Shown here in pieces: positions 5,192-34,531 of a DNA stretch of 48,044 bases. Source of the stretch: an uncultured Candidatus Peribacteria bacterium (lineage in GTDB: Bacteria > Patescibacteriota > Gracilibacteria > UBA1369 > UM-FILTER-53-11); assembly GCA_964354865.1 (NCBI GenBank), contig CAYHBN010000002.1, positions 1-48,044 of the forward strand. The letters run 5' to 3'. The notes under the pieces were generated by a model. It saw only the letters and a program-made list of their open reading frames with translations, was not told where the DNA came from and ran no database searches. The position numbers and the translations under genes are program-made. The stretch's first letter is position 1, and every line of letters starts with the position of its first letter.

Positions 5192-5638
5192 ATGTTACGC
5201 GATCAAATCAATACCGACCTACTTAACGCGATGAAGGCGAAAGAAGAAATAAAACTTGGTGCGCTACGAATGCTCAAAGCAGCAATTATGAAGTTTGAAG
5301 TTTCAGACGGCGCGAAAAAAGAGGCGAGTGATGAAGCAGTACTCACACTGGTGAATAAAGAGATCAAGAGCCGCCGCGATTCTGTTGCAGCATTTAAAAC
5401 AGGCGGCCGCGATGACATGGCGGCACGCGAAGAAGCCGAGATTGCATGTTTAATGACATACATGCCCACTCAACTGTCTGAAGACGAAATTAGGGCCATT
5501 GCAAAAGAGGCTATTGCATTAAGCGGCGCGAGCTCAAAGGCAGACTTTGGCAAAGTCATGGGCGCGATGATGCCAAAGGTAAAAGGCAAAGCGGACGGGC
5601 AAGTCGTGAGCAAGGTAGTAGGGGAGTTACTTGCGTAA
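5192..5638 (+). CDS. GatB/YqeY domain protein
   Basis: 148 aa. N-terminal LNAMKAKEEIKLGALRMLKAAI and C-terminal GKADGQVVSKVV are typical of YqeY. Confidence 0.8.
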   Translation: MLRDQINTDLLNAMKAKEEIKLGALRMLKAAIMKFEVSDGAKKEASDEAVLTLVNKEIKSRRDSVAAFKTGGRDDMAAREEAEIACLMTYMPTQLSEDEIRAIAKEAIALSGASSKADFGKVMGAMMPKVKGKADGQVVSKVVGELLA

Positions 5639-6409
5639 TCTATCTCTAAAATCGCTCACTGCTTCATAGGCTTCAATTAGGTCAGAATATACTCGAGTAT
5701 TTTTGACAGTATCATCTTTAAAGTAACCCTCTATCCTGTCTAATCCGTCGTATTGGTTAGTCGAAAATAGCCGTGCGCGCGCATACAAATCTGTATGCAT
5801 GAGCAAATCGTGCCGTGTTGCAAACTGACCAACTGCATCGAGCTGCCGCGGGGTAACCAAATCGTCTATGCCGCAGTTATATGTTGACGCGCCGCCATCA
5901 TCGTTACGTCTTATACCTGACTCGGGAATAATTCCCATTAAACCAAGATCAAACAATCGCATACTTGGAAGCACCGTGCCGTTTTCTAATAAAAGGTACT
6001 GCGATTGATAAAAGGCAGGGGAATCGGTATGATTAATAATACTCACTGCATCAACAGGATCAGAGTAATAGGGTGTACACAATTCCGTGTGGGCACCAAT
6101 TTTATGCGCGTAACGAAAATTAGTTAGATGTCGACGCAATTGAGGTAACTTTGATTTTAAATAACCATCGATCGTACCGCCCGCCTCGCATCGCATTTGC
6201 CATTTGCGAACTCCGAGCACTGAGGACGGCACTTCAAGTTCGTCTCTGTTTTGTCCGCCAATTTCAGCAACTCGCATCGCACGATTACTCATTTCAAGTA
6301 CCAAATATGCAGGAATAGAGTTATCTAGGCTTAACGCCCTAGGGCAAGTTTCAAAAATATCTCCTTTATGTAAAGTTAATTCTGCGGAAAATCGAGGCAT
6401 GATAATCAA
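5627..6409 (-). CDS. Hypothetical protein (260 aa)
   Basis: Long uninterrupted ORF that looks more GC-rich than its neighbours by eye. No motif recognised. Its 3' end overlaps the yqeY-like gene by 12 nt. Confidence 0.5.
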   Translation of the reverse strand: MIIMPRFSAELTLHKGDIFETCPRALSLDNSIPAYLVLEMSNRAMRVAEIGGQNRDELEVPSSVLGVRKWQMRCEAGGTIDGYLKSKLPQLRRHLTNFRYAHKIGAHTELCTPYYSDPVDAVSIINHTDSPAFYQSQYLLLENGTVLPSMRLFDLGLMGIIPESGIRRNDDGGASTYNCGIDDLVTPRQLDAVGQFATRHDLLMHTDLYARARLFSTNQYDGLDRIEGYFKDDTVKNTRVYSDLIEAYEAVSDFRDRLRK

Positions 6410-6528: not shown

Positions 6529-6819
6529 TGGTGGGCAGGGAGGGATTCGAACCCCCGAAGACGTTAAGCCGACAGATTTCATGTGTCCCTAAGATTTCTC
6601 ATAGGCATGGACTATATCTTTACCATTCCGATTTCTCGATGAAGGTATTCCGGTATCTAGTCTCTACGGCGCTCTCCAACAATGTTGAAGTTCCCACGGT
6701 ATTAGCATATCTCGTTAAAGACTTAGCTTTCACCGTTATCCCGGAAAGTTTACTGTAAGGTTTCCCTTACAGGCTGCCTTTTGACAGTCTGTTGCGTTTA
6801 GCCACTTCGCTACCTGCCC
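6529..6819 (-). tRNA. tRNA-Tyr (anticodon GUA), class II, interrupted by a 204-nt intron in the anticodon
   Basis: The 5' exon (6819-6784) is GGGCAGGTAGCGAAGTGGCTAAACGCAACAGACTGT. The 3' exon (6579-6529) is AAATCTGTCGGCTTAACGTCTTCGGGGGTTCGAATCCCTCCCTGCCCACCA. Joined, they give the loop CU-GUA-AA, a long variable arm and acceptor GGGCAGG/CCTGCCC. The joined sequence closely parallels E. coli tRNA-Tyr as I recall it. Confidence 0.85.
6580..6783 (-). mobile_element. Group I (IC3-like) self-splicing intron within tRNA-Tyr
   Basis: The 5' splice site follows a U. Exon CUGU can pair with intron GCAG (a U-G wobble P1). The intron ends in G. It contains GGGAAACC and GGUGAAAGC hairpins, GUAGAGACUAGA (the J6/7-P7 motif as recalled from the Azoarcus and Anabaena tRNA introns) and a matching AUAGUCC P7' strand. 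No ORF lies inside. Confidence 0.75.
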
Positions 6820-6824
6820 ATTTT

Positions 6825-7418
6825 TCAAACTAACAAATCGCACAATACCTTTTCGCACATATGCAGTATTTTTTCAAGCAACTTCTTATCATTATAACGA
6901 ATATGTACAACTCCGTACGAAAGCTTTTTAGGAGAATTTGGCAGTGTCTGTCGAATATATGGCTGAGTAAACTGTGATTTCTGAACAGCTAAAACACGAG
7001 ACCAATAATCAATTATTTTCGGGATATCTTGGTCACTAAAACAATATAGATATATTCTAATTTTGTCTTTCTGTACTCCACATATCTCACGCAAAAACTT
7101 CATAAAAACCAAAAGGGTTTCCTTATCAGAATTCACAAAATCCACCGTATTACCAGATTTAGCACCTTCGCCTTTGTATAACATTAGAGCGGCAAGAAAT
7201 AAATCTTTCTCAATATTGAGCAGTGGATCTTTAAAGTTATAACTAAGAGGTTTCGAATCAAACCTAATCTTATTTTGTTCTTTTGCATTCCTGCGCTCAA
7301 CTCCAGACTTAATTAAATGCCTGTAGATAGTTTTAATACTCACCCCAAATACATCAGCTATTTGCTGGGCACTCTGGCCTTGTTTATATCGGGAAACAAT
7401 ATCTAAATCTAAAGACAT
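6825..7418 (-). CDS. HTH plus LAGLIDADG-like homing-endonuclease-family protein
   Basis: N-terminal resolvase-type HTH (SAQQIADVFGVSIKTIYRHL). LAALMLYKGEGA resembles a single LAGLIDADG motif, followed by VDFVNSDKETLLVFMKFL as in LAGLIDADG_3 proteins. The stop codon is 5 nt from the 5' end of tRNA-Tyr. Confidence 0.55.
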   Translation of the reverse strand: MSLDLDIVSRYKQGQSAQQIADVFGVSIKTIYRHLIKSGVERRNAKEQNKIRFDSKPLSYNFKDPLLNIEKDLFLAALMLYKGEGAKSGNTVDFVNSDKETLLVFMKFLREICGVQKDKIRIYLYCFSDQDIPKIIDYWSRVLAVQKSQFTQPYIRQTLPNSPKKLSYGVVHIRYNDKKLLEKILHMCEKVLCDLLV

Positions 7419-28773: not shown

Positions 28774-29655
28774 ATGCTTAGGATCAATTCTTCATTCGAT
28801 CAGGAATCAACCCCACTCCTTTCAGTACAAGGAAACACCCTGCTTGAACACCGGTACCCACAAGGCTTTGGCATTCGCCTCGTCAATCGAATGAATGAAA
28901 AGGGCTTAATCTCAGACCTATTCGCTTCGCCCGAAATAACATTAGAACTTCATGCCTTATTAAAAAACTATGGCTGCGTAGTAATCGACGACGTAAACGA
29001 CCATGGATTAGAGCCACTTTCATGTAATGTATTTCATAACGTGAATGCTGATGACCCTGTGAGCGATATGTGGCATCAAGATAATTCGGTTGACGATCAA
29101 CTAGCTACAAACATATTGAGTGGAAGTAAAAATGCCGATGAATATATTGCACATATTAAAAACTTAGACTTTTCCATTGTGCTTTATTGTCCTGATCAAA
29201 ACCCGTCACGATCCATACCTACACTTATAGCGGATAGAAAGCTTGTGTCGCAAACCCTCTTAATGTGTGTACAAAATACGGCCAGCAACATAAGATTACT
29301 CTCAATATGCAGCAAAATTTCTGATGCAGTGAAAAAAACAACTCAACACCGCACGGATGAACTTGCCGAAGTATTTGAAAGATATGGAATTGGCCCAGAT
29401 GAAGCAGCGGAAATGTTTACTCTAAACGCACTAAGCCGCGAGGATACACCACCGAATATTCGCGCCTTTCACCGTTATATCGAAGAACAAGTTTCAGGTG
29501 TTTTGAGAATTGGATGGAAACCCAATCGTGCAGTAATTATAAATAACGTAACTGTTGCTCATAAGCGCTCAACTGTTAACCCAAGGTTAACAAATGAACA
29601 AGGCCCATTGAGCAATTATAGAATATTCAATTCTTACACGCATGACAGCGAATAG
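28774..29655 (+). CDS. Possible Fe(II)/2-oxoglutarate dioxygenase (TauD/TfdA-like)
   Basis: WHQDNS (an HxD facial-triad-like motif) and a distal AVIINNVTVAHKRS, resembling the WDNR..HRA segment of TauD. Otherwise unrecognised. Confidence 0.35.
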   Translation: MLRINSSFDQESTPLLSVQGNTLLEHRYPQGFGIRLVNRMNEKGLISDLFASPEITLELHALLKNYGCVVIDDVNDHGLEPLSCNVFHNVNADDPVSDMWHQDNSVDDQLATNILSGSKNADEYIAHIKNLDFSIVLYCPDQNPSRSIPTLIADRKLVSQTLLMCVQNTASNIRLLSICSKISDAVKKTTQHRTDELAEVFERYGIGPDEAAEMFTLNALSREDTPPNIRAFHRYIEEQVSGVLRIGWKPNRAVIINNVTVAHKRSTVNPRLTNEQGPLSNYRIFNSYTHDSE

Positions 29656-30068
29656 TCATGAATGAGAGATGTTTTTGATTTCCATCTTTGAACAGTACTT
29701 GGCGAAATACCAAGTGACCGAGCTATAACGCGAACGCTTAATCCCTGCTGTAGAAGTAGTAATCCTGCGCGAAGCGTTTGTGCGGTTGCATGAAGTCGGT
29801 ATGTGACGTCGTTACGATGTGCGACCCACGTTTTATTGCACGATTTACACATAAAGCGCTGGTACTGGCGCGCATGTACCGTCACATTTCCTGCGCATAA
29901 TTTACCAAAATGGTAGCAGTTAGTATTTGGGCATGACTGATTACGTACCGAGAAGGTAAGTACCGCTCCACCCACTTCGTAGGTACCCGGCAAAGCAGTA
30001 CTTCGTACCGCGCCATTTTGTGACTGGAACTGTTCGAAGCTTTGTGCGGAGTTGAGTTGAGTTTGCAT
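29634..30068 (-). CDS. IS1 InsA-like zinc-ribbon plus HTH protein; no InsB/transposase partner present
   Basis: CPNTNCYHFGK...QRFMCKSCNKTW (compare InsA CPSC...QRYLCSHCRKTW), followed by the HTH LSVRVIARSLGISPSTVQRW. Start set at ATG 30068. Confidence 0.45.
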   Translation of the reverse strand: MQTQLNSAQSFEQFQSQNGAVRSTALPGTYEVGGAVLTFSVRNQSCPNTNCYHFGKLCAGNVTVHARQYQRFMCKSCNKTWVAHRNDVTYRLHATAQTLRAGLLLLQQGLSVRVIARSLGISPSTVQRWKSKTSLIHDYSLSCV

Positions 30069-30382
30069 GGTAGGTAGAGAGTTAGGTGAGTAGAAGCGAA
30101 GATCCGTGAGGACGAGTGAGGGAATCAGAGAATTAGAGGGAAGGAAAGTTACAAAAAAACACCCTTTTGCGGAGGGCGAGTGATGTGATTGATACTTGTT
30201 ATGAGAAGTTTTAAATTCTCTCAAGTGTCGTACACAAATCGCCCCCCTTCATCTTAATAATGAGGGTCTTAATTGTGACGCAAATGAGAGTTGAAACTTT
30301 CATGTGCACTAAATTTACTACAGCAAAACACCTACAGTCAAGTTGGTGTACTCATCAAGTGTGGGGGCATGGCGTCTACATT

Positions 30383-30982
30383 TTACAATTTCTTAAGCCC
30401 ATTGAAAATCACTCGTTCAAACTTCAAGTAATCTTTCTGCATACCAGCAATACATGCCTTCATATATTCCGCACGAGAAGATTTTGAGTAATCGACAAAA
30501 TCATAACCCACATTGAGCGCAAGTAGATCAATAAAAAGGCGAATAACCCTACCATTACCTTCTCGGAACGGGTGAATAGCATTTAACTCAGCGTGAAAAA
30601 GAGCCAATTTAGCAGCTAAAGATTTTTTAGTATCAGTCGCTGTTGGAAAATTATCTTTAAGCAAAATATCAAAAGCCTTTAGCTCATTTTTAATAAAAGC
30701 ACTCGCGCAGAACATCGAAGTACCTTTTGAAATCTCAACAGTCCGTGCCTTGCCAGCCCAAGTATAAAGAGGATCAAGGAAAAATCCGTGAATATCAAAC
30801 AAAAGTTTTGTGGTGAATTTTAGCTTTCCAGATTTGAGTTTTTCGAGAAAATGCTCATAGGTATCTTGAAGAAGAAGCGTCTCAATATCAGTAAGTAGCT
30901 GATCATCTGAAATATTCTTTTTATTCGACAAAACTACTGTGCCCTCCTTGCCACCCACACTATAACGAGAATGCTCGACCAT
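30383..30982 (-). CDS. fic: Fic-domain protein (class I Fic toxin, FicT/VbhT-like adenylyltransferase)
   Basis: Canonical Fic motif HPFREGNGRVIR. Confidence 0.85.
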   Translation of the reverse strand: MVEHSRYSVGGKEGTVVLSNKKNISDDQLLTDIETLLLQDTYEHFLEKLKSGKLKFTTKLLFDIHGFFLDPLYTWAGKARTVEISKGTSMFCASAFIKNELKAFDILLKDNFPTATDTKKSLAAKLALFHAELNAIHPFREGNGRVIRLFIDLLALNVGYDFVDYSKSSRAEYMKACIAGMQKDYLKFERVIFNGLKKL

Positions 30983-31156: not shown

Positions 31157-32515
31157 TCAATCATCTTCCATCGCAGGTTTTCGATTGGTTTCAACATCGT
31201 AAAACTTCATCTTTGCGCGCTCGAACATAAGCTCAATATGACCCGTTGGACCATTTCTGTGTTTGCGAATATACACGTCGGTAATTCCTTTTCGATCGGT
31301 ATCTTCTTCGTAGTAATCTTCACGATAGAGCATAAGCACCACATCGGCGTCTTGCTCAATCGAACCGGACTCACGAAGATCAGATAGCATTGGCACCTTT
31401 GAAGGACGCAACTCAACCGCACGAGACAACTGCGACAATGCAATAATCGGCATGTGCAGCTCACGGGCAAGCGCCTTGAGTGCACGGGTAATTTCGGAAA
31501 TTTCTTGCACACGATTTGTCTGTCCGTAGCCGCTTTTCGATGATGCACTCATAAGCTGGATATAGTCGATAACAAGAGCGTCAAGACCATGCTCAGATTT
31601 AAGACGGCGAGCTTTGGTACGAAGCTCAACGATGTTTGAAACCGGAGAATCATCGATGAAAATTTTTGTCTGATTCAAGTCGTCCATCACACTCCCTATT
31701 CGTGCAAAATCTTCGTCTGACAGTTTGCCCGTGCGCATTTTCCACGAATCGACACCGAGCATCGCACAGAACATACGTTCAACTAATTGTTCCTTACTCA
31801 TTTCAAGTGAAATTAATCCGACTGACTTATCGTGTCGCGCAATATTTTGAGCAATATTTAAGGCAAAGGCGGTTTTCCCCATTGAAGGACGTGCGGCAAT
31901 AATAACCAGATCGCTTGGATTAAAGCCAGAAAGCACGCCATCGAGAGAGCGAAATCCAGTTGGAATTCCGAGGTATTTTTCTTTGGTGTCGGGGTCGTGA
32001 AGATCGGAGATTTTTTCGTAAGTCGTCGCCAAAATATCTTTAATGTGAACGAATCTATCGCGTACGAATGTTTGGGAAATGTTGAATAGTGACTTTTCTG
32101 CTTCTTCAAGGAGTTCGTTAATTTCGCGTGCTTCTTCGTAACCGAGAGCCATGATTTTATCACCCGCAGAGATAACGCGGCGCAGTGTCGACTTTGTTTT
32201 TACAATAGATGCGTACTGAATTACGTGAGAGGCGGTTGGAACATCGATGGTTAACTCGGCTAAATAAGCGGTTCCACCAACTTCTTCGAGTTTGCCATGA
32301 TCTTCAAGCAGATTTGAAAGGATTTTGAGATCGATTGGCAGATGGCGGGCGAAACAGTCGAGCATCGCCTGAAAAATGATCTCGTGTTTGCCAAAGTAGA
32401 AGTCCTCGGGGTGCAAGAAATCGGCGACCTTAATAATGGCATCTTTGTCTATAATCAAGGCGCCAAGGGTAGCTTTTTCTGCTTCTTCGGAATGTGGGGG
32501 AATTTTGAGGGACAT
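31157..32515 (-). CDS. dnaB: Replicative DNA helicase DnaB
   Basis: N-terminal PPHSEEAEKATLGALI, Walker A ARPSMGKTAF, Walker B LVIDYIQLM, and the SQLSR arginine-finger region. Confidence 0.95.
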   Translation of the reverse strand: MSLKIPPHSEEAEKATLGALIIDKDAIIKVADFLHPEDFYFGKHEIIFQAMLDCFARHLPIDLKILSNLLEDHGKLEEVGGTAYLAELTIDVPTASHVIQYASIVKTKSTLRRVISAGDKIMALGYEEAREINELLEEAEKSLFNISQTFVRDRFVHIKDILATTYEKISDLHDPDTKEKYLGIPTGFRSLDGVLSGFNPSDLVIIAARPSMGKTAFALNIAQNIARHDKSVGLISLEMSKEQLVERMFCAMLGVDSWKMRTGKLSDEDFARIGSVMDDLNQTKIFIDDSPVSNIVELRTKARRLKSEHGLDALVIDYIQLMSASSKSGYGQTNRVQEISEITRALKALARELHMPIIALSQLSRAVELRPSKVPMLSDLRESGSIEQDADVVLMLYREDYYEEDTDRKGITDVYIRKHRNGPTGHIELMFERAKMKFYDVETNRKPAMEDD

Positions 32516-32921
32516 GGGTACGAGCGGTAGGAATTCATCATAATGAAATATATATGAACTGAAAGTGAAATCGCTTGCGGGATTTGCACGAAGTGAGTGG
32601 GGATAGTTGAAAAGGGGTGTAAAACGTTAGTTTATTGTACGTGCTCGATAGCGGTAAATTTAGGTTTCCAGTTCGGATTCTCGAAATAGGGCTTTGTGCG
32701 AGCGCGACACTGTCTCTTGTAAATAGATCCCTGAAACTTGCTACGCGGATACATGATCCGCTCCGCAATGTCTCGGGGTACATGACCCCTCGACACAGGG
32801 ATCACTATTTACTTCGAGCCATGTCCCACTCACACAAAACAGCTCATTTTTCGCGAACCCGCCTGTGCCCGAGAATTTCCCAAAACAAAACTACCGCCCA
32901 AAAAACTATTTCCCAACATAT

Positions 32922-33389
32922 TCACTTCATCTCAACTCTCTGTTTGCTCATGTATGTTTTAAATCCGTATTTTGCCCAGACTTTTTGACCGACTTCGTTT
33001 TTAACGTGAACGGTTAACTCAACACAGGGAACTTTTTTAGTCTTAAACCAATCAAAAAGTTTCGAGATAAATAATTGCGCTACTCCTTTTTCTCTCCATG
33101 TTTTTTCGACATATATATCGCTGATTAATCCATTTTTCTTAATCGCAAATACAGGGGCGCGGCCACATATTTCTCCGGCTGCAAATCCTATAATTTCGCC
33201 AACATCTACTGCAACCAGTAAGAGTTTTGACGAAGACCCGATATACGATTTGAAACATTTAAAATAAACATCTTTTACATTTTTTGCAGGTTCGTAATAT
33301 GGATCAAAGTCGGCGTGGAGATTGATAAGCTCAACTGCAAATTTGGTAATGAATGGAAGGTCGGCAATTGTGGCTTTTCTGATTAACAT
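32922..33389 (-). CDS. GNAT-family N-acetyltransferase
   Basis: 155 aa. VAVDVGEIIGFAAG...IYVEKTWREKGVAQLF (acetyl-CoA-binding Q/RxxGxG/A-like motif) and ...AKYGF. Start set at ATG 33389. Confidence 0.75.
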   Translation of the reverse strand: MLIRKATIADLPFITKFAVELINLHADFDPYYEPAKNVKDVYFKCFKSYIGSSSKLLLVAVDVGEIIGFAAGEICGRAPVFAIKKNGLISDIYVEKTWREKGVAQLFISKLFDWFKTKKVPCVELTVHVKNEVGQKVWAKYGFKTYMSKQRVEMK

Positions 33390-33399
33390 ATGATCAATA

Positions 33400-33813
33400 T
33401 TAACAGAATCTCTTGTACTCAGGAAAATTAGCCTTAATGTGTTCAAATATCCACTGTGTTTCTGATTGTTTTTTACTGCGGTGATCTTTGCCGTACACCA
33501 GCAAAATGACAATTTTTCCCGTGGCGTTGTTGAGTGAAAAAACCGCCCGATTACCAGATGATTTTGGGGAGACATTTGTACCTGCAACTCTAAAATCGAG
33601 CTTAAAAAATCCAACACCGTCGTCTTGGAAAAACTTCAACGGATCTATGAGATTTGTATCTTGAAAGCCGTAAGCGCGCGCTAACGTTTCAGTGATTGTT
33701 TTCGTAGTTTCAATCCACTGTTTTGGCTTATATTTTCGTAAAAAATCTTTGCAAAAATGCCGCTCGCAGTAGGTTGAGAACTCGACTTCGTATGCAATAT
33801 CTTTAATAAACAT
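33400..33813 (-). CDS. RelE/ParE-superfamily-like toxin (partner of the Panacea-domain antitoxin)
   Basis: 137 aa. FKLDFRVAGTNVSPKSSGNRAVFSL...KIVILLVYGKDH resembles RelE-fold toxins. Its start overlaps the upstream gene by 11 nt. Confidence 0.5.
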   Translation of the reverse strand: MFIKDIAYEVEFSTYCERHFCKDFLRKYKPKQWIETTKTITETLARAYGFQDTNLIDPLKFFQDDGVGFFKLDFRVAGTNVSPKSSGNRAVFSLNNATGKIVILLVYGKDHRSKKQSETQWIFEHIKANFPEYKRFC

Positions 33814-34495
33814 TTTCTGGTGCCTCGTTATTAATAAGCGAGTAGGGAATAACTTCACGCTCCCTGCAAACTTTCCATGGGATCTGTTTATGCGTAAAGT
33901 CGACAATCTCTTGAGTGTTTGCGTTTTTCCATTTTTTACAAATCTCTTTCACGAGCGCGAGCTCTTCGGTATTGAGCACCGAATCATTGGGCTGCTCGAC
34001 AAGAGTCACCAATATCGCATCGCCACTTTGCTCTGACTTGAGCGATTCGTCGTTGTCGATAATGTCGAAAAATTCGATTGCAACAGGACCACGCGCAAGC
34101 CGGTGGTATTCAAAGCCAGAAATCGGCGTGAGCGTTTTGTAGTAGCTCGCAAAATCACAGAGGTAGACGAGTTTTGCTAACTTCGTTTTGGTGATTTTTC
34201 CGTCATCTGCAGCGCCATATTTGATACACTGCAAAATGAGATTATGAAATTTTTGTAAGGATTTTTCGCCAAAATTCTGTGACTTAATTTTCTTCGGCAA
34301 GCTCATTTCTGCATCGAGAATAATCTCGAGAGGGAGGTCAAAAATCTCAGAAATTTTCGTGAGCTCACTAAGCGTTATTTCTCGGTCGCCTTTTTCGATC
34401 AATACAAGAGTGGGGCGCGAAACACCAAGCTTTTGAGCAAGCTGTTGCTGCGTAATCCCCGCCGATTTTCGCAGTTTTACGATGAAGTCCTTCAT
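33803..34495 (-). CDS. XRE-family HTH fused to a DUF4065 (Panacea/SocA-like) antitoxin domain
   Basis: N-terminal LRKSAGITQQQLAQKLGVSRPTLVLIEKGDREITL. C-terminal KTKLAKLVYLCDFASYY...GPVAIEF is typical of DUF4065. Confidence 0.6.
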   Translation of the reverse strand: MKDFIVKLRKSAGITQQQLAQKLGVSRPTLVLIEKGDREITLSELTKISEIFDLPLEIILDAEMSLPKKIKSQNFGEKSLQKFHNLILQCIKYGAADDGKITKTKLAKLVYLCDFASYYKTLTPISGFEYHRLARGPVAIEFFDIIDNDESLKSEQSGDAILVTLVEQPNDSVLNTEELALVKEICKKWKNANTQEIVDFTHKQIPWKVCREREVIPYSLINNEAPENVY

Positions 34496-34502
34496 GCAAA
34501 AA

Positions 34503-34531
34503 AGAATAGCGGATTCACGAAGAAATGTCAA
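34503..34531 (-). promoter_or_regulatory. Consensus promoter for the Panacea TA operon (leaderless)
   Basis: On the minus strand: TTGACA (34531-34526), a 17-nt spacer, TATTCT (34508-34503), then 7 nt to ATG 34495. Confidence 0.7.

What the first reader, a model, noticed from the sequence alone, without database searches (positions are those of the whole stretch)
32516..32921. About 400-nt ORF-poor, heavily base-paired region between GNAT and dnaB: candidate large structured RNA or regulatory DNA
This region contains no credible CDS. It has nested long-range complementarity:
- GCGGG (32577-32581) with CCCGC (32858-32862).
- GTGAGTGGG (32593-32601) with CCCACTCAC (32825-32833).
- AAATAGATCCCTG (32721-32733) with CAGGGATCACTATTT (32796-32810).

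The last pair encloses two sibling hairpins, GCGGAT-ACATG-ATCCGC (32745-32761) and GGGGT-ACATG-ACCCC (32775-32789). Both share the core TACATGA.

The whole fold is a closed multi-helix structure of about 290 nt. I looked for RNase P (GGAAAGUCC), SRP and tmRNA signatures and found none, so it may be an unclassified RNA. Alternatively, the two GGnTACATGAnCC palindromes may be protein-binding sites controlling dnaB.
Basis: seen in the sequence. Interest (0 to 1): 0.6.

Follow-up and report, generated by a model that had tools for sequence, protein, structure and literature searches.

The report
Foldback repeat element upstream of dnaB
The base-paired region between the acetyltransferase gene and dnaB is real, but it is one copy of a small hairpin-shaped repeat scattered through the genomes of one group of ultra-small bacteria, not a regulator made for dnaB.

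Summary
The unit is smaller than proposed: a 188-nt foldback element at 32674-32861. Two long arms enclose two sibling hairpins with CATG-type loops.

A covariance model of the twin hairpins found 153 matches in 36 of 151 genomes of the same order (Peregrinibacteria/Peribacteria by record titles), 1-15 per genome, and none in 135 genomes of other orders of the class. Rfam 15 has nothing like it.

Copies lie beside unrelated housekeeping genes, in sense and antisense about equally. They are present or absent at orthologous sites, and the sister species lacks this one upstream of dnaB. One clean filled/empty pair shows a 149-nt unit with a perfect 20-bp terminal inverted repeat and no clear target duplication.

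In genomes with marked GC skew, orientation follows the skew rather than gene direction. This did not hold in the window's own family, where skew is weak.

Best reading: a new MITE-like foldback element, probably moved by a strand-specific, replication-linked route, with the enzyme unknown. A functional RNA is not excluded. A dnaB-specific role is unlikely.

The parts
32674..32861 (-). Whole foldback (palindromic) repeat element, 188 nt. The strand named is the one modelled (tandem G-A mismatches, CATGT loops).
   Evidence: Arm-to-arm alignment. Folds. Covariance-model matches (72.4 bits, E 9e-14). Present in G000 but not at the same site in same-genus G001.
32796..32861 (-). 5' arm of the element on the minus strand. 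It includes the inner closing-stem half CAGGGATC (+ strand, 32796-32803).
   Evidence: For this copy the arms give 49 Watson-Crick, 3 G.T, 1 A.C and 6 other positions. See also I3, I14 and I16.
32769..32795 (-). Hairpin 1: 4-bp stem, tandem G-A/G-A internal loop, 5-bp stem, loop CATGT.
   Evidence: All 9 pairs show changes on both sides in 20 copies, and 8 of 9 do in 27 copies.
32738..32768 (-). Hairpin 2: 4-bp stem, 3x3 internal loop, 6-bp stem, loop CATGT.
   Evidence: All 9 pairs show changes on both sides.
32674..32733 (-). 3' arm of the element on the minus strand. It includes the closing-stem half GATCCCTG (+ strand, 32726-32733).
32516..32624 (-). Context, not part of the element: the dnaB-proximal upstream stretch, over 90% identical in same-genus G001, which lacks the element. 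Probably the real dnaB promoter or leader (inferred).
   Evidence: query 17-109 at 91% identity. alignment.
31157..32515 (-). Context: dnaB (DnaB_C and DnaB N-terminal domains).
32922..33617 (-). Context: GNAT acetyltransferase ORF (longest frame; the true start may lie further in). The element lies 60 nt downstream of its stop.

Best explanation
Bases 32674-32861 are one rather worn copy of a previously undescribed family of small non-coding foldback repeats. The family is MITE-like and confined, as far as sampled, to one order of CPR bacteria (Peregrinibacteria/Peribacteria by record titles).

Shown:
- Each copy is a long hairpin. Two arms of 25-60 nt pair almost perfectly and differ from subfamily to subfamily. 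They enclose a conserved apex of two sibling hairpins with CATG-type loops, the first hairpin carrying a tandem G-A mismatch.
- The whole hairpin, arms included, is the unit that is present or absent at a site.
- Copies lie mostly just past the ends of genes.

Inferred:
- The element is, or was, mobile and works at the DNA level. It is probably recognised through the strand-specific apex when the DNA is single-stranded at the replication fork. This would explain why, in genomes with marked GC skew, nearly all copies point the same way relative to the skew and not to the genes.
- The perfect mirroring of changes between arms is most simply explained by replication template switching within the palindrome, not by selection on an RNA.
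- At this locus the element lies between the stop of the acetyltransferase gene and the conserved dnaB upstream stretch. If transcribed, it would form a long RNA hairpin that could end or stabilise the upstream message, as a side effect.

The mobilising enzyme is unknown.
For: 1. Family and structure.
- The model built from the window copy plus a non-orthologous copy in G001 found further copies.
- The refined model R2 gave 153 matches in 36 of 151 genomes of the order (26 of 92 genera), 1-15 per genome.
- In the class sample, 0 of 135 genomes of other orders matched.
- In 27 copies, 98.2% of cells are paired and 17 of 18 pairs change on both sides; 0 of 500 shuffles reach this, and slid controls give 26-45% paired.
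- Every copy inspected has long flanking arms.

2. Not gene-specific.
- The neighbours are M17 peptidase, ABC ATPase, KsgA, DHH, PrsW, HisA/F, Pta, PAPS reductase, Bax1-I, IF-2, FtsW/MurG, RibD and MetRS.
- Of 50 copies: tandem sense 9, tandem antisense 8, convergent 15, divergent 5, locus edge 5, ORF-caller run-through 8.

3. Presence or absence at orthologous sites.
- The window has the element and G001 does not.
- Two G011 copies are missing at the G077 orthologous sites.
- Clean pair: G068 has a 149-nt unit with a perfect 20-bp terminal inverted repeat immediately after a stop codon; the G120 site is empty.
- G060 carries a 91% identical copy 2 kb away, in which a change in one arm is mirrored in the other.

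4. Lineage-specific bursts.
- Three G084 copies are more than 90% alike over about 290 nt.
- Eleven G121 copies have related arms with mirrored differences.

5. DNA-like pairing.
- The arms of 50 copies give 1991 Watson-Crick, 63 G.T, 52 A.C and 142 other positions, so there is no strand-specific wobble.
- Only about 7 of 445 apex cells are G-U (my count from the pair table).

6. Orientation follows GC skew.
- G084 chromosome: skew is negative in 20 of 20 sampled windows, and 7 of 7 copies have the modelled strand on the C-rich strand.
- G011: skew is at most 0.001 in 20 of 20 windows, and 4 of 4 copies agree.
- In 16 of 17 single-orientation 20-kb regions of G121, G068 and G060 the modelled strand is on the C-rich strand, while the majority gene strand agrees in only 9 of 17.
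- Neighbouring copies on one contig share orientation 34 times against 7 (my count from the list).

7. The window sequence is confirmed by contigs of four DNA runs from two studies, with no differences.
Against: - No transposase is linked to the element.
  - Y1 (PF01797) was 0 of 5 and then 2 of 5 in element-bearing genomes. The Y1 loci carry no twin hairpin. Across the order sample, Y1 is in 37 genomes and the element in 36, with an overlap of 8 against 8.8 expected.
  - TnpB (PF07282) was 0 of 5.
  - Y2 (PF04986) was 0 of 5, but its control rang in no genome, so this says nothing.
- No target-site duplication was seen in the one clean filled/empty pair or in the G121 flanks.
- The termini differ between subfamilies, so a classical end-binding transposase is hard to picture.
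- The orientation rule was not seen in the window's own family: 9 copies on the C-rich strand against 12 on the G-rich, with |skew| at most 0.11. It was also broken in mixed regions (2 consistent, 3 not, 1 neutral) and by one G068 copy. In two of the 16 consistent regions the skew is about 0.
- G000 has weak skew (median |skew| 0.04), so nothing can be said for the window copy itself.
- The four G011 copies have unrelated, genome-unique arms, although 2 of 2 tested are absent from the sister species. Simple copy-and-paste does not explain this.
- The conserved loops and the tandem G-A on one strand suit a folded RNA as well as single-stranded DNA. The window and G001 copies are clearly more stable on the minus strand.
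- No exact-pattern or blastn match was found in viral, phage or plasmid collections, so no vector for spread was seen.
Confidence: 0.7

Rival explanations
1. A family of functional structured RNAs (small RNA genes or a general cis-acting RNA module). The twin hairpins with self-complementary CAUG loops and a tandem G-A motif would form a three-way junction that binds a protein or dimerises. The long stem would give stability or an RNase III site. Copies would be paralogues.
For: - Strong covariation in the apex.
- The loops and the tandem G-A are conserved on one strand only.
- The minus strand is clearly more stable for the window copy (-133.1 against -125.1 kcal/mol) and the G001 copy (-82.5 against -69.2; z -6.5 against -4.5).
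- The modelled strand is more stable in 12 of 19 copies.
- Four G011 copies keep a conserved apex although their arms are unrelated.
Against: - Orientation relative to tandem flanking genes is even, 9 sense and 8 antisense, while orientation follows GC skew.
- Wobble pairs are rare and not strand-specific.
- Copies are gained or lost between sister species.
- Copies within a genome resemble each other more than copies in other genomes.
- No promoter-like or terminator-like site was found in 32400-33050.
- Template switching can maintain hairpins without selection (abstract of PMC8794818, seen in the listing).
Confidence: 0.12
2. A host DNA element with a polar function in chromosome replication or maintenance. 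Examples would be a protein-binding or priming/pausing site that acts as a hairpin on one template strand. It would be kept in one orientation by selection rather than by the insertion mechanism.
For: - Orientation is tied to the GC-skew strand in five genomes of four genera.
- The apex is strand-asymmetric and conserved.
- No transposase is linked to it.
Against: - It was found in only 36 of 151 genomes of the order, with 1-15 copies. A core replication function would be universal.
- Copies are present or absent between sister species.
- No orientation rule was seen in the window's own family.
Confidence: 0.1
3. A regulator specific to dnaB, either an RNA leader or an operator made of the two palindromes.
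For: It lies 159-345 nt upstream of the dnaB start, on the same strand as dnaB.
Against: - Same-genus G001 keeps dnaB and the 145-nt upstream stretch at over 90% identity but lacks the element.
- None of the other 18 copies first collected lies beside dnaB.
Confidence: 0.03

Closest known systems
Prokaryotic MITEs and palindromic intergenic repeats (Correia, ERIC, RUP/BOX/SPRITE, QMITE)
   Same: - Small, non-coding and multi-copy.
- Terminal inverted repeats.
- Lie in intergenic DNA, often at gene 3' ends.
- The transcript would fold into a stable stem-loop.
- Copy number varies between related genomes.
Sources: passages of PMC10969869 read; my.
   Different: - The centre is the conserved part here, and the termini differ between subfamilies.
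- No target duplication was seen.
- No related insertion sequence was found.
- Orientation follows GC skew.
- The host group (CPR) is not in the taxon list of the review passage I read.
IS200/IS605-derived elements and REP/REPIN-RAYT systems
   Same: - Hairpins recognised as single-stranded DNA.
- No target duplication.
- Orientation biased with respect to replication.
- Paired inverted units that keep complementarity.
These properties of IS608/ISDra2 and of REPINs are recalled from memory, not from a call. Family-specific orientation bias of insertion sequences is stated in the abstract of PMC3971601.
   Different: - The defining Y1 HUH transposase does not go with the element: overlap of 8 genomes against 8.8 expected by chance.
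- It is absent from G000, G001, G011, G077, G084, G121, G068 and G076.
- The Y1 loci lack the twin hairpin.
- IS200/IS605 ends are not inverted repeats.
Three-way-junction RNAs with two sibling hairpins whose loops interact (purine riboswitch aptamer; tandem-hairpin guanidine-II motif)
   Same: A closing stem plus two hairpins of similar length. Both loops carry the same short, self-complementary sequence. This is an architectural resemblance recalled from memory only.
   Different: - No Rfam match.
- No common gene context.
- Both orientations occur relative to genes.
- Mobile-element-like distribution.

Membership tests
Prokaryotic MITE | Small (under about 500 bp), non-coding | tested here: met
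   The elements measure 188 nt in the window, 149 nt in G068 and about 290 nt in G084. ORFs across the window copy have no Pfam hit.
Prokaryotic MITE | Terminal inverted repeats | tested here: met
   There is a perfect 20-bp TIR in the G068 copy and a 13-bp TIR in the G084 copies. The arms of 50 copies are 88.6% Watson-Crick (1991 of 2248 aligned positions).
Prokaryotic MITE | Multiple dispersed copies, with presence or absence at orthologous sites | tested here: met
   153 matches in 36 of 151 genomes. Filled and empty sites.
Prokaryotic MITE | Target-site duplication (direct repeats) flanking the element | tested here: not met
   No direct repeat was seen at the one clean filled/empty pair; the boundary is ambiguous by about 4 nt. 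None was evident in the G121 or G084 flanks. Only one clean pair was available.
Prokaryotic MITE | A related autonomous insertion sequence with matching ends | tested here: inconclusive
   Only Y1, Y2 and TnpB were looked for, and none is linked. DDE and other transposase families were not surveyed.
IS200/IS605-derived element or REP/REPIN | A Y1 HUH transposase (TnpA or RAYT) in the same genomes | tested here: not met
   PF01797 is in 37 of 151 genomes and the element in 36 of 151. They overlap in 8, against 8.8 expected. PF01797 was absent from G000.
IS200/IS605-derived element or REP/REPIN | Orientation bias relative to the replication strand | tested here: inconclusive
   The bias was met in G084, G011, G121, G068 and G060. 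It was not seen in family f1, at 9 against 12. Which strand is leading was not established.
Any Rfam 15 family (RNase P, SRP, tmRNA, 6S, riboswitches, ribozymes) | A covariance-model match | tested here: not met
   No match at gathering score in the window region. Only chance-level hits at E of at least 1 in 32300-33100. Nothing at the element in 17 other loci.
Cis-regulatory RNA leader (riboswitch-like) | Always 5' of, and in sense with, functionally related genes | tested here: not met
   The neighbours are unrelated. Counts were 9 sense, 8 antisense, 15 convergent and 5 divergent.
Intrinsic terminator-like mobile element (SPRITE-like) | GC-rich hairpin followed by a U-tract, lying at gene 3' ends | tested here: inconclusive
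   The consensus scan found no terminator-like site in 32400-33050. Copies favour convergent over divergent gene pairs, 15 against 5.

The most novel reading that the evidence does not exclude
The twin-hairpin apex is the recognition module of an as yet unknown mobilisation system that is strand-specific and coupled to replication. The system would not be Y1 or TnpB. It would define the ends of the element by the foot of a long hairpin rather than by terminal sequence, so the arms are free to change as long as they stay mirrored.

This would be a new way for a small element to move. It would operate in CPR bacteria, at least two of whose chromosomes show one-directional GC skew in the sampled windows.
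Probability: 0.2. Interest if true: 0.75.

Novelty: new variant of a known kind. Interest (0 to 1): 0.45.

Why it matters
- It removes a false lead: this is not a dnaB riboregulator or a missing housekeeping RNA.
- It adds a repeat family in CPR bacteria. In my searches of the held library I found no paper describing MITE-like elements in this group.
- The family's conserved centre, variable but mirrored arms, lack of a linked transposase and skew-locked orientation make it a useful case for two questions:
  - how hairpin DNA is handled at replication forks in ultra-small bacteria;
  - how compensatory changes in hairpins can arise without selection on RNA.
- It is a caution for RNA-motif discovery. 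Strong covariation and good z-scores were obtained here for what is most likely a DNA element.

Tried and rejected
Tried and led nowhere, or rejected:
- Rfam at gathering and at E up to 10 on the window, and at E up to 1 on 17 other loci, gave nothing at the element.
- Riboswitch or leader idea: rejected on gene context and orientation.
- Missing housekeeping RNA (6S, RNase P): not pursued further once the element proved to be multi-copy and patchy.
- 'The arms are inverted copies of the target site': rejected for the G068/G120 pair, where the arms are absent from the empty site. One G011 arm is unique in its genome apart from its own partner. The 10-nt resemblance between the G001 site and the window arm was judged too short to count.
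- IS200/IS605 or RAYT partner: rejected.
- TnpB: not found in 5 genomes.
- Y2: no verdict, because the control rang nowhere.
- Strand asymmetry of folding energy or wobble pairs as a test for RNA: weak or absent.
- Orthologue in G000 of the G001 copy: falls in an assembly gap at two contig ends.
- First two G068 loci tried for filled/empty sites were not clean.
- No RNA holder was listed among public runs. Two RNA runs from the same samples held next to none of the words. This says nothing about expression.
- Laying four DNA runs gave identical contigs and no joints or variants.
- Two exact patterns in viral contigs gave 0. blastn against the phage and plasmid collections gave no match.
- The promoter and terminator consensus scan gave 0 sites.
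- Supplementary files of papers were not consulted. They may hold repeat annotations for Peribacteria genomes that I could not see.

Full report
**The observation.**
- dnaB is 31157-32515 on the minus strand. A GNAT acetyltransferase ORF ends at 32922 on the same strand.
- The 406-nt spacer folds better than dinucleotide shuffles on both strands: z -4.06 on + and -4.25 on -, with 0 of 100 shuffles as good.
- Rfam 15 has no match at gathering score and only chance-level hits at E of at least 1.
- The two longest ORFs across the spacer have no Pfam hit.

**From one locus to a family.**
- The window comes from a 1.5-Mb genome in 135 contigs.
- The same-genus genome G001 matches only the first 93 nt upstream of dnaB (91% identity) and not the paired core. 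It holds a second, non-orthologous copy of the twin hairpins between a peptidase gene and a glycosyltransferase-like gene.
- That copy folds into the same architecture with differently sequenced stems: z -4.5 on one strand and -6.5 on the other.
- Model R1, a 61-nt covariance model of the two hairpins, found 19 matches in 10 of 151 genomes of the order.
- Model R2, built from 27 copies, found 153 matches at E of at most 0.01 in 36 of 151 genomes (26 of 92 genera), 1-15 per genome.
- In a sample of the class, the only matching genomes belonged to the same order; 0 of 135 genomes of other orders matched. Both large searches used Infernal's stricter filters, so these are lower bounds.
- G000 itself has four matches: the window, C45, C31 and C1.
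- An exact-pattern scan of one genome per species returned 10 stretches. Nine came from MAGs titled Peregrinibacteria, Peribacteria or Gracilibacteria, and one from a MAG titled Nitrospirota. All folded as long hairpins.

**Anatomy.** On the modelled (minus) strand the apex has two hairpins.
- Hairpin 1 (32795-32769) has a 4-bp stem, a tandem G-A/G-A internal loop, a 5-bp stem and the loop CATGT.
- Hairpin 2 (32768-32738) has a 4-bp stem, a 3x3 internal loop, a 6-bp stem and the loop CATGT.
- In 27 copies, 98.2% of cells pair and 17 of 18 pairs change on both sides. No shuffle of 500 reaches the observed values, and sliding the partners by 1-3 columns drops pairing to 26-45% (for 20 copies). 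These alignments were fitted to the model, which favours the structure, but the stem sequences plainly differ between copies.
- A few copies replace the G-A pairs by Watson-Crick pairs.
- Every copy is enclosed by long arms.
- In the window the arms are 32796-32861 and 32674-32733, which gives a 188-nt element.
They would pair the element with the dnaB-proximal stretch that G001 keeps without the element. I regard them as incidental.

**Not a dnaB device, and not a leader.**
- The genes next to the first 19 copies are unrelated housekeeping genes.
- With a crude ORF caller, 50 copies fall as follows: tandem sense 9, tandem antisense 8, convergent 15, divergent 5, locus edge 5, ORF run-through 8.
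- G001 keeps dnaB and about 145 nt upstream at over 90% identity. It lacks about 270 nt that include the element, and it also lacks the acetyltransferase gene.

**A discrete unit that comes and goes.**
- Two G011 copies are missing from the orthologous sites of same-genus G077.
- One G068 copy gave a clean pair. G120 has the two flanks abutting, while G068 has 149 extra bases directly after a stop codon. These are bounded by a perfect 20-bp inverted repeat, and no direct repeat is evident.
- G060 has a roughly 60-nt arm-like relic at that site and a 91% identical copy 2 kb away. In that copy a change in one arm is mirrored in the other.
- Three G084 copies are more than 90% alike over about 290 nt, with partial copies beside them.
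- Eleven G121 copies share related arms whose differences are mirrored.
- By contrast, the four G011 copies have unrelated arms, and one tested arm is unique in its genome. I cannot explain this.

**RNA or DNA?**
- The arms of 50 copies hold 1991 Watson-Crick, 63 G.T, 52 A.C and 142 other positions, so wobble is not favoured on either strand. G-U is rare in the apex.
- Folding energy favours the modelled strand in 12 of 19 copies, including clearly the window and G001 copies.
- The most telling result is orientation:
  - In the complete G084 chromosome the + strand has negative GC skew in all 20 sampled 10-kb windows (-0.18 to -0.45, with no sign change). All 7 copies have the modelled strand on it.
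  - In the complete G011 chromosome the skew is at most 0.001 in 20 of 20 windows, and all 4 copies agree.
  - In 16 of 17 single-orientation 20-kb regions of G121, G068 and G060 the modelled strand lies on the C-rich strand, though two of these have skew near 0. The majority gene strand agrees in only 9 of 17.
  - Three mixed regions gave 2 consistent, 3 inconsistent and 1 neutral copy.
  - Neighbouring copies on a contig share orientation 34 times against 7 (my count).
  - Against this, in the window's own family skew is weak and the relation is absent, at 9 against 12. G000 has a median |skew| of 0.04.
- That leading strands are usually G-rich is stated in PMC7143001 (passages). Which strand leads in these genomes was not established.
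- Family-specific orientation bias of insertion sequences relative to replication is reported in the abstract of PMC3971601.

**The enzyme.**
- Y1 transposase does not go with the element.
- TnpB was not found in five high-copy genomes.
- The Y2 search is void because its control rang nowhere.
- Other transposase families were not surveyed.

**Mirrored arms.** Abstracts seen in the listing report that replication template switching in imperfect inverted repeats homogenises the arms and can create and maintain hairpins (PMC7202029, PMC8604942, PMC8794818). I take this as the simplest source of the mirrored changes. It is an inference, not tested here.

**Comparison and novelty.**
- The element fits the general picture of prokaryotic MITEs given in passages of PMC10969869.
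- It differs in four ways: a conserved centre with variable ends, no target duplication seen, no linked insertion sequence, and skew-locked orientation.
- Searches of the held library found no description of such elements in this group: 'Peregrinibacteria' with 'palindromic'; 'Peribacteria' with 'complete genome' and 'repeat'; 'Patescibacteria' with 'MITE' and 'intergenic repeat'; 'Candidate Phyla Radiation' with 'miniature inverted-repeat'.
- The Peribacteria genome paper has no occurrence of hairpin, palindrom, intergenic or stem-loop in its main text.
- Supplements were not available.

**Verdict.**
- The structure is real, but the unit is a 188-nt copy of a dispersed foldback repeat. It most likely acts at the DNA level and is, or once was, mobile.
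- A role as RNA is possible but less likely. A dnaB-specific role is unlikely.
- The window sequence is confirmed by contigs of four DNA runs from two studies.

Noticed in passing
L086-L105 (G084 chromosome, 20 windows) and L106-L125 (G011 chromosome, 20 windows): Two complete chromosomes of this order show GC skew of one sign along the whole sampled length: -0.18 to -0.45 in G084 and 0 to -0.15 in G011. There is no switch at an origin or terminus. PMC7143001 reports this pattern for some Microgenomates and states that Peregrinibacteria genomes have typical two-armed curves (passage).
   Followed up: partly
window 6588-6794 (-): Borderline Rfam match to the group I catalytic intron (51.3 bits against a gathering score of 50). 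It lies between two minus-strand ORFs (5627-6409 and 6825-7418), not inside a tRNA or rRNA gene.
   Followed up: partly
window 29634-30982 and 33803-34531 (-): The neighbourhood is rich in accessory genes: an HTH/TnsD-like ORF, a Fic/DOC protein, and an HTH plus SocA/Panacea antitoxin-like ORF. The acetyltransferase gene next to the element is missing in same-genus G001, apart from a remnant of its 3' end.
   Followed up: no
L053:2232-2344 (G077, orthologous to the G011 copy in L046): Where G011 has the element, G077 has a different hairpin of about 110 nt, with its own inverted arms and no CATG twin hairpins. Other foldback families may therefore exist in these genomes.
   Followed up: no
L177:2747-2840, L185:7587-7694 (family f1 genomes G005, G004); also G000:C31:2315-2413: A subfamily in the window's own family carries 35-48 extra bases nested in the loop of hairpin 1. 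These form one or two further small hairpins.
   Followed up: partly
G130:C1 (complete genome of the order): There are fourteen Y1 transposase matches, 12 of them on the minus strand. This is a strong orientation bias for an IS200-like element in a genome where the foldback element was not found.
   Followed up: no
window 32516-32624 (-): The dnaB-proximal stretch is over 90% identical in G001 and contains a small hairpin (AAATC...GATTT around 32569-32586). No sigma-70-like promoter was called.
   Followed up: no
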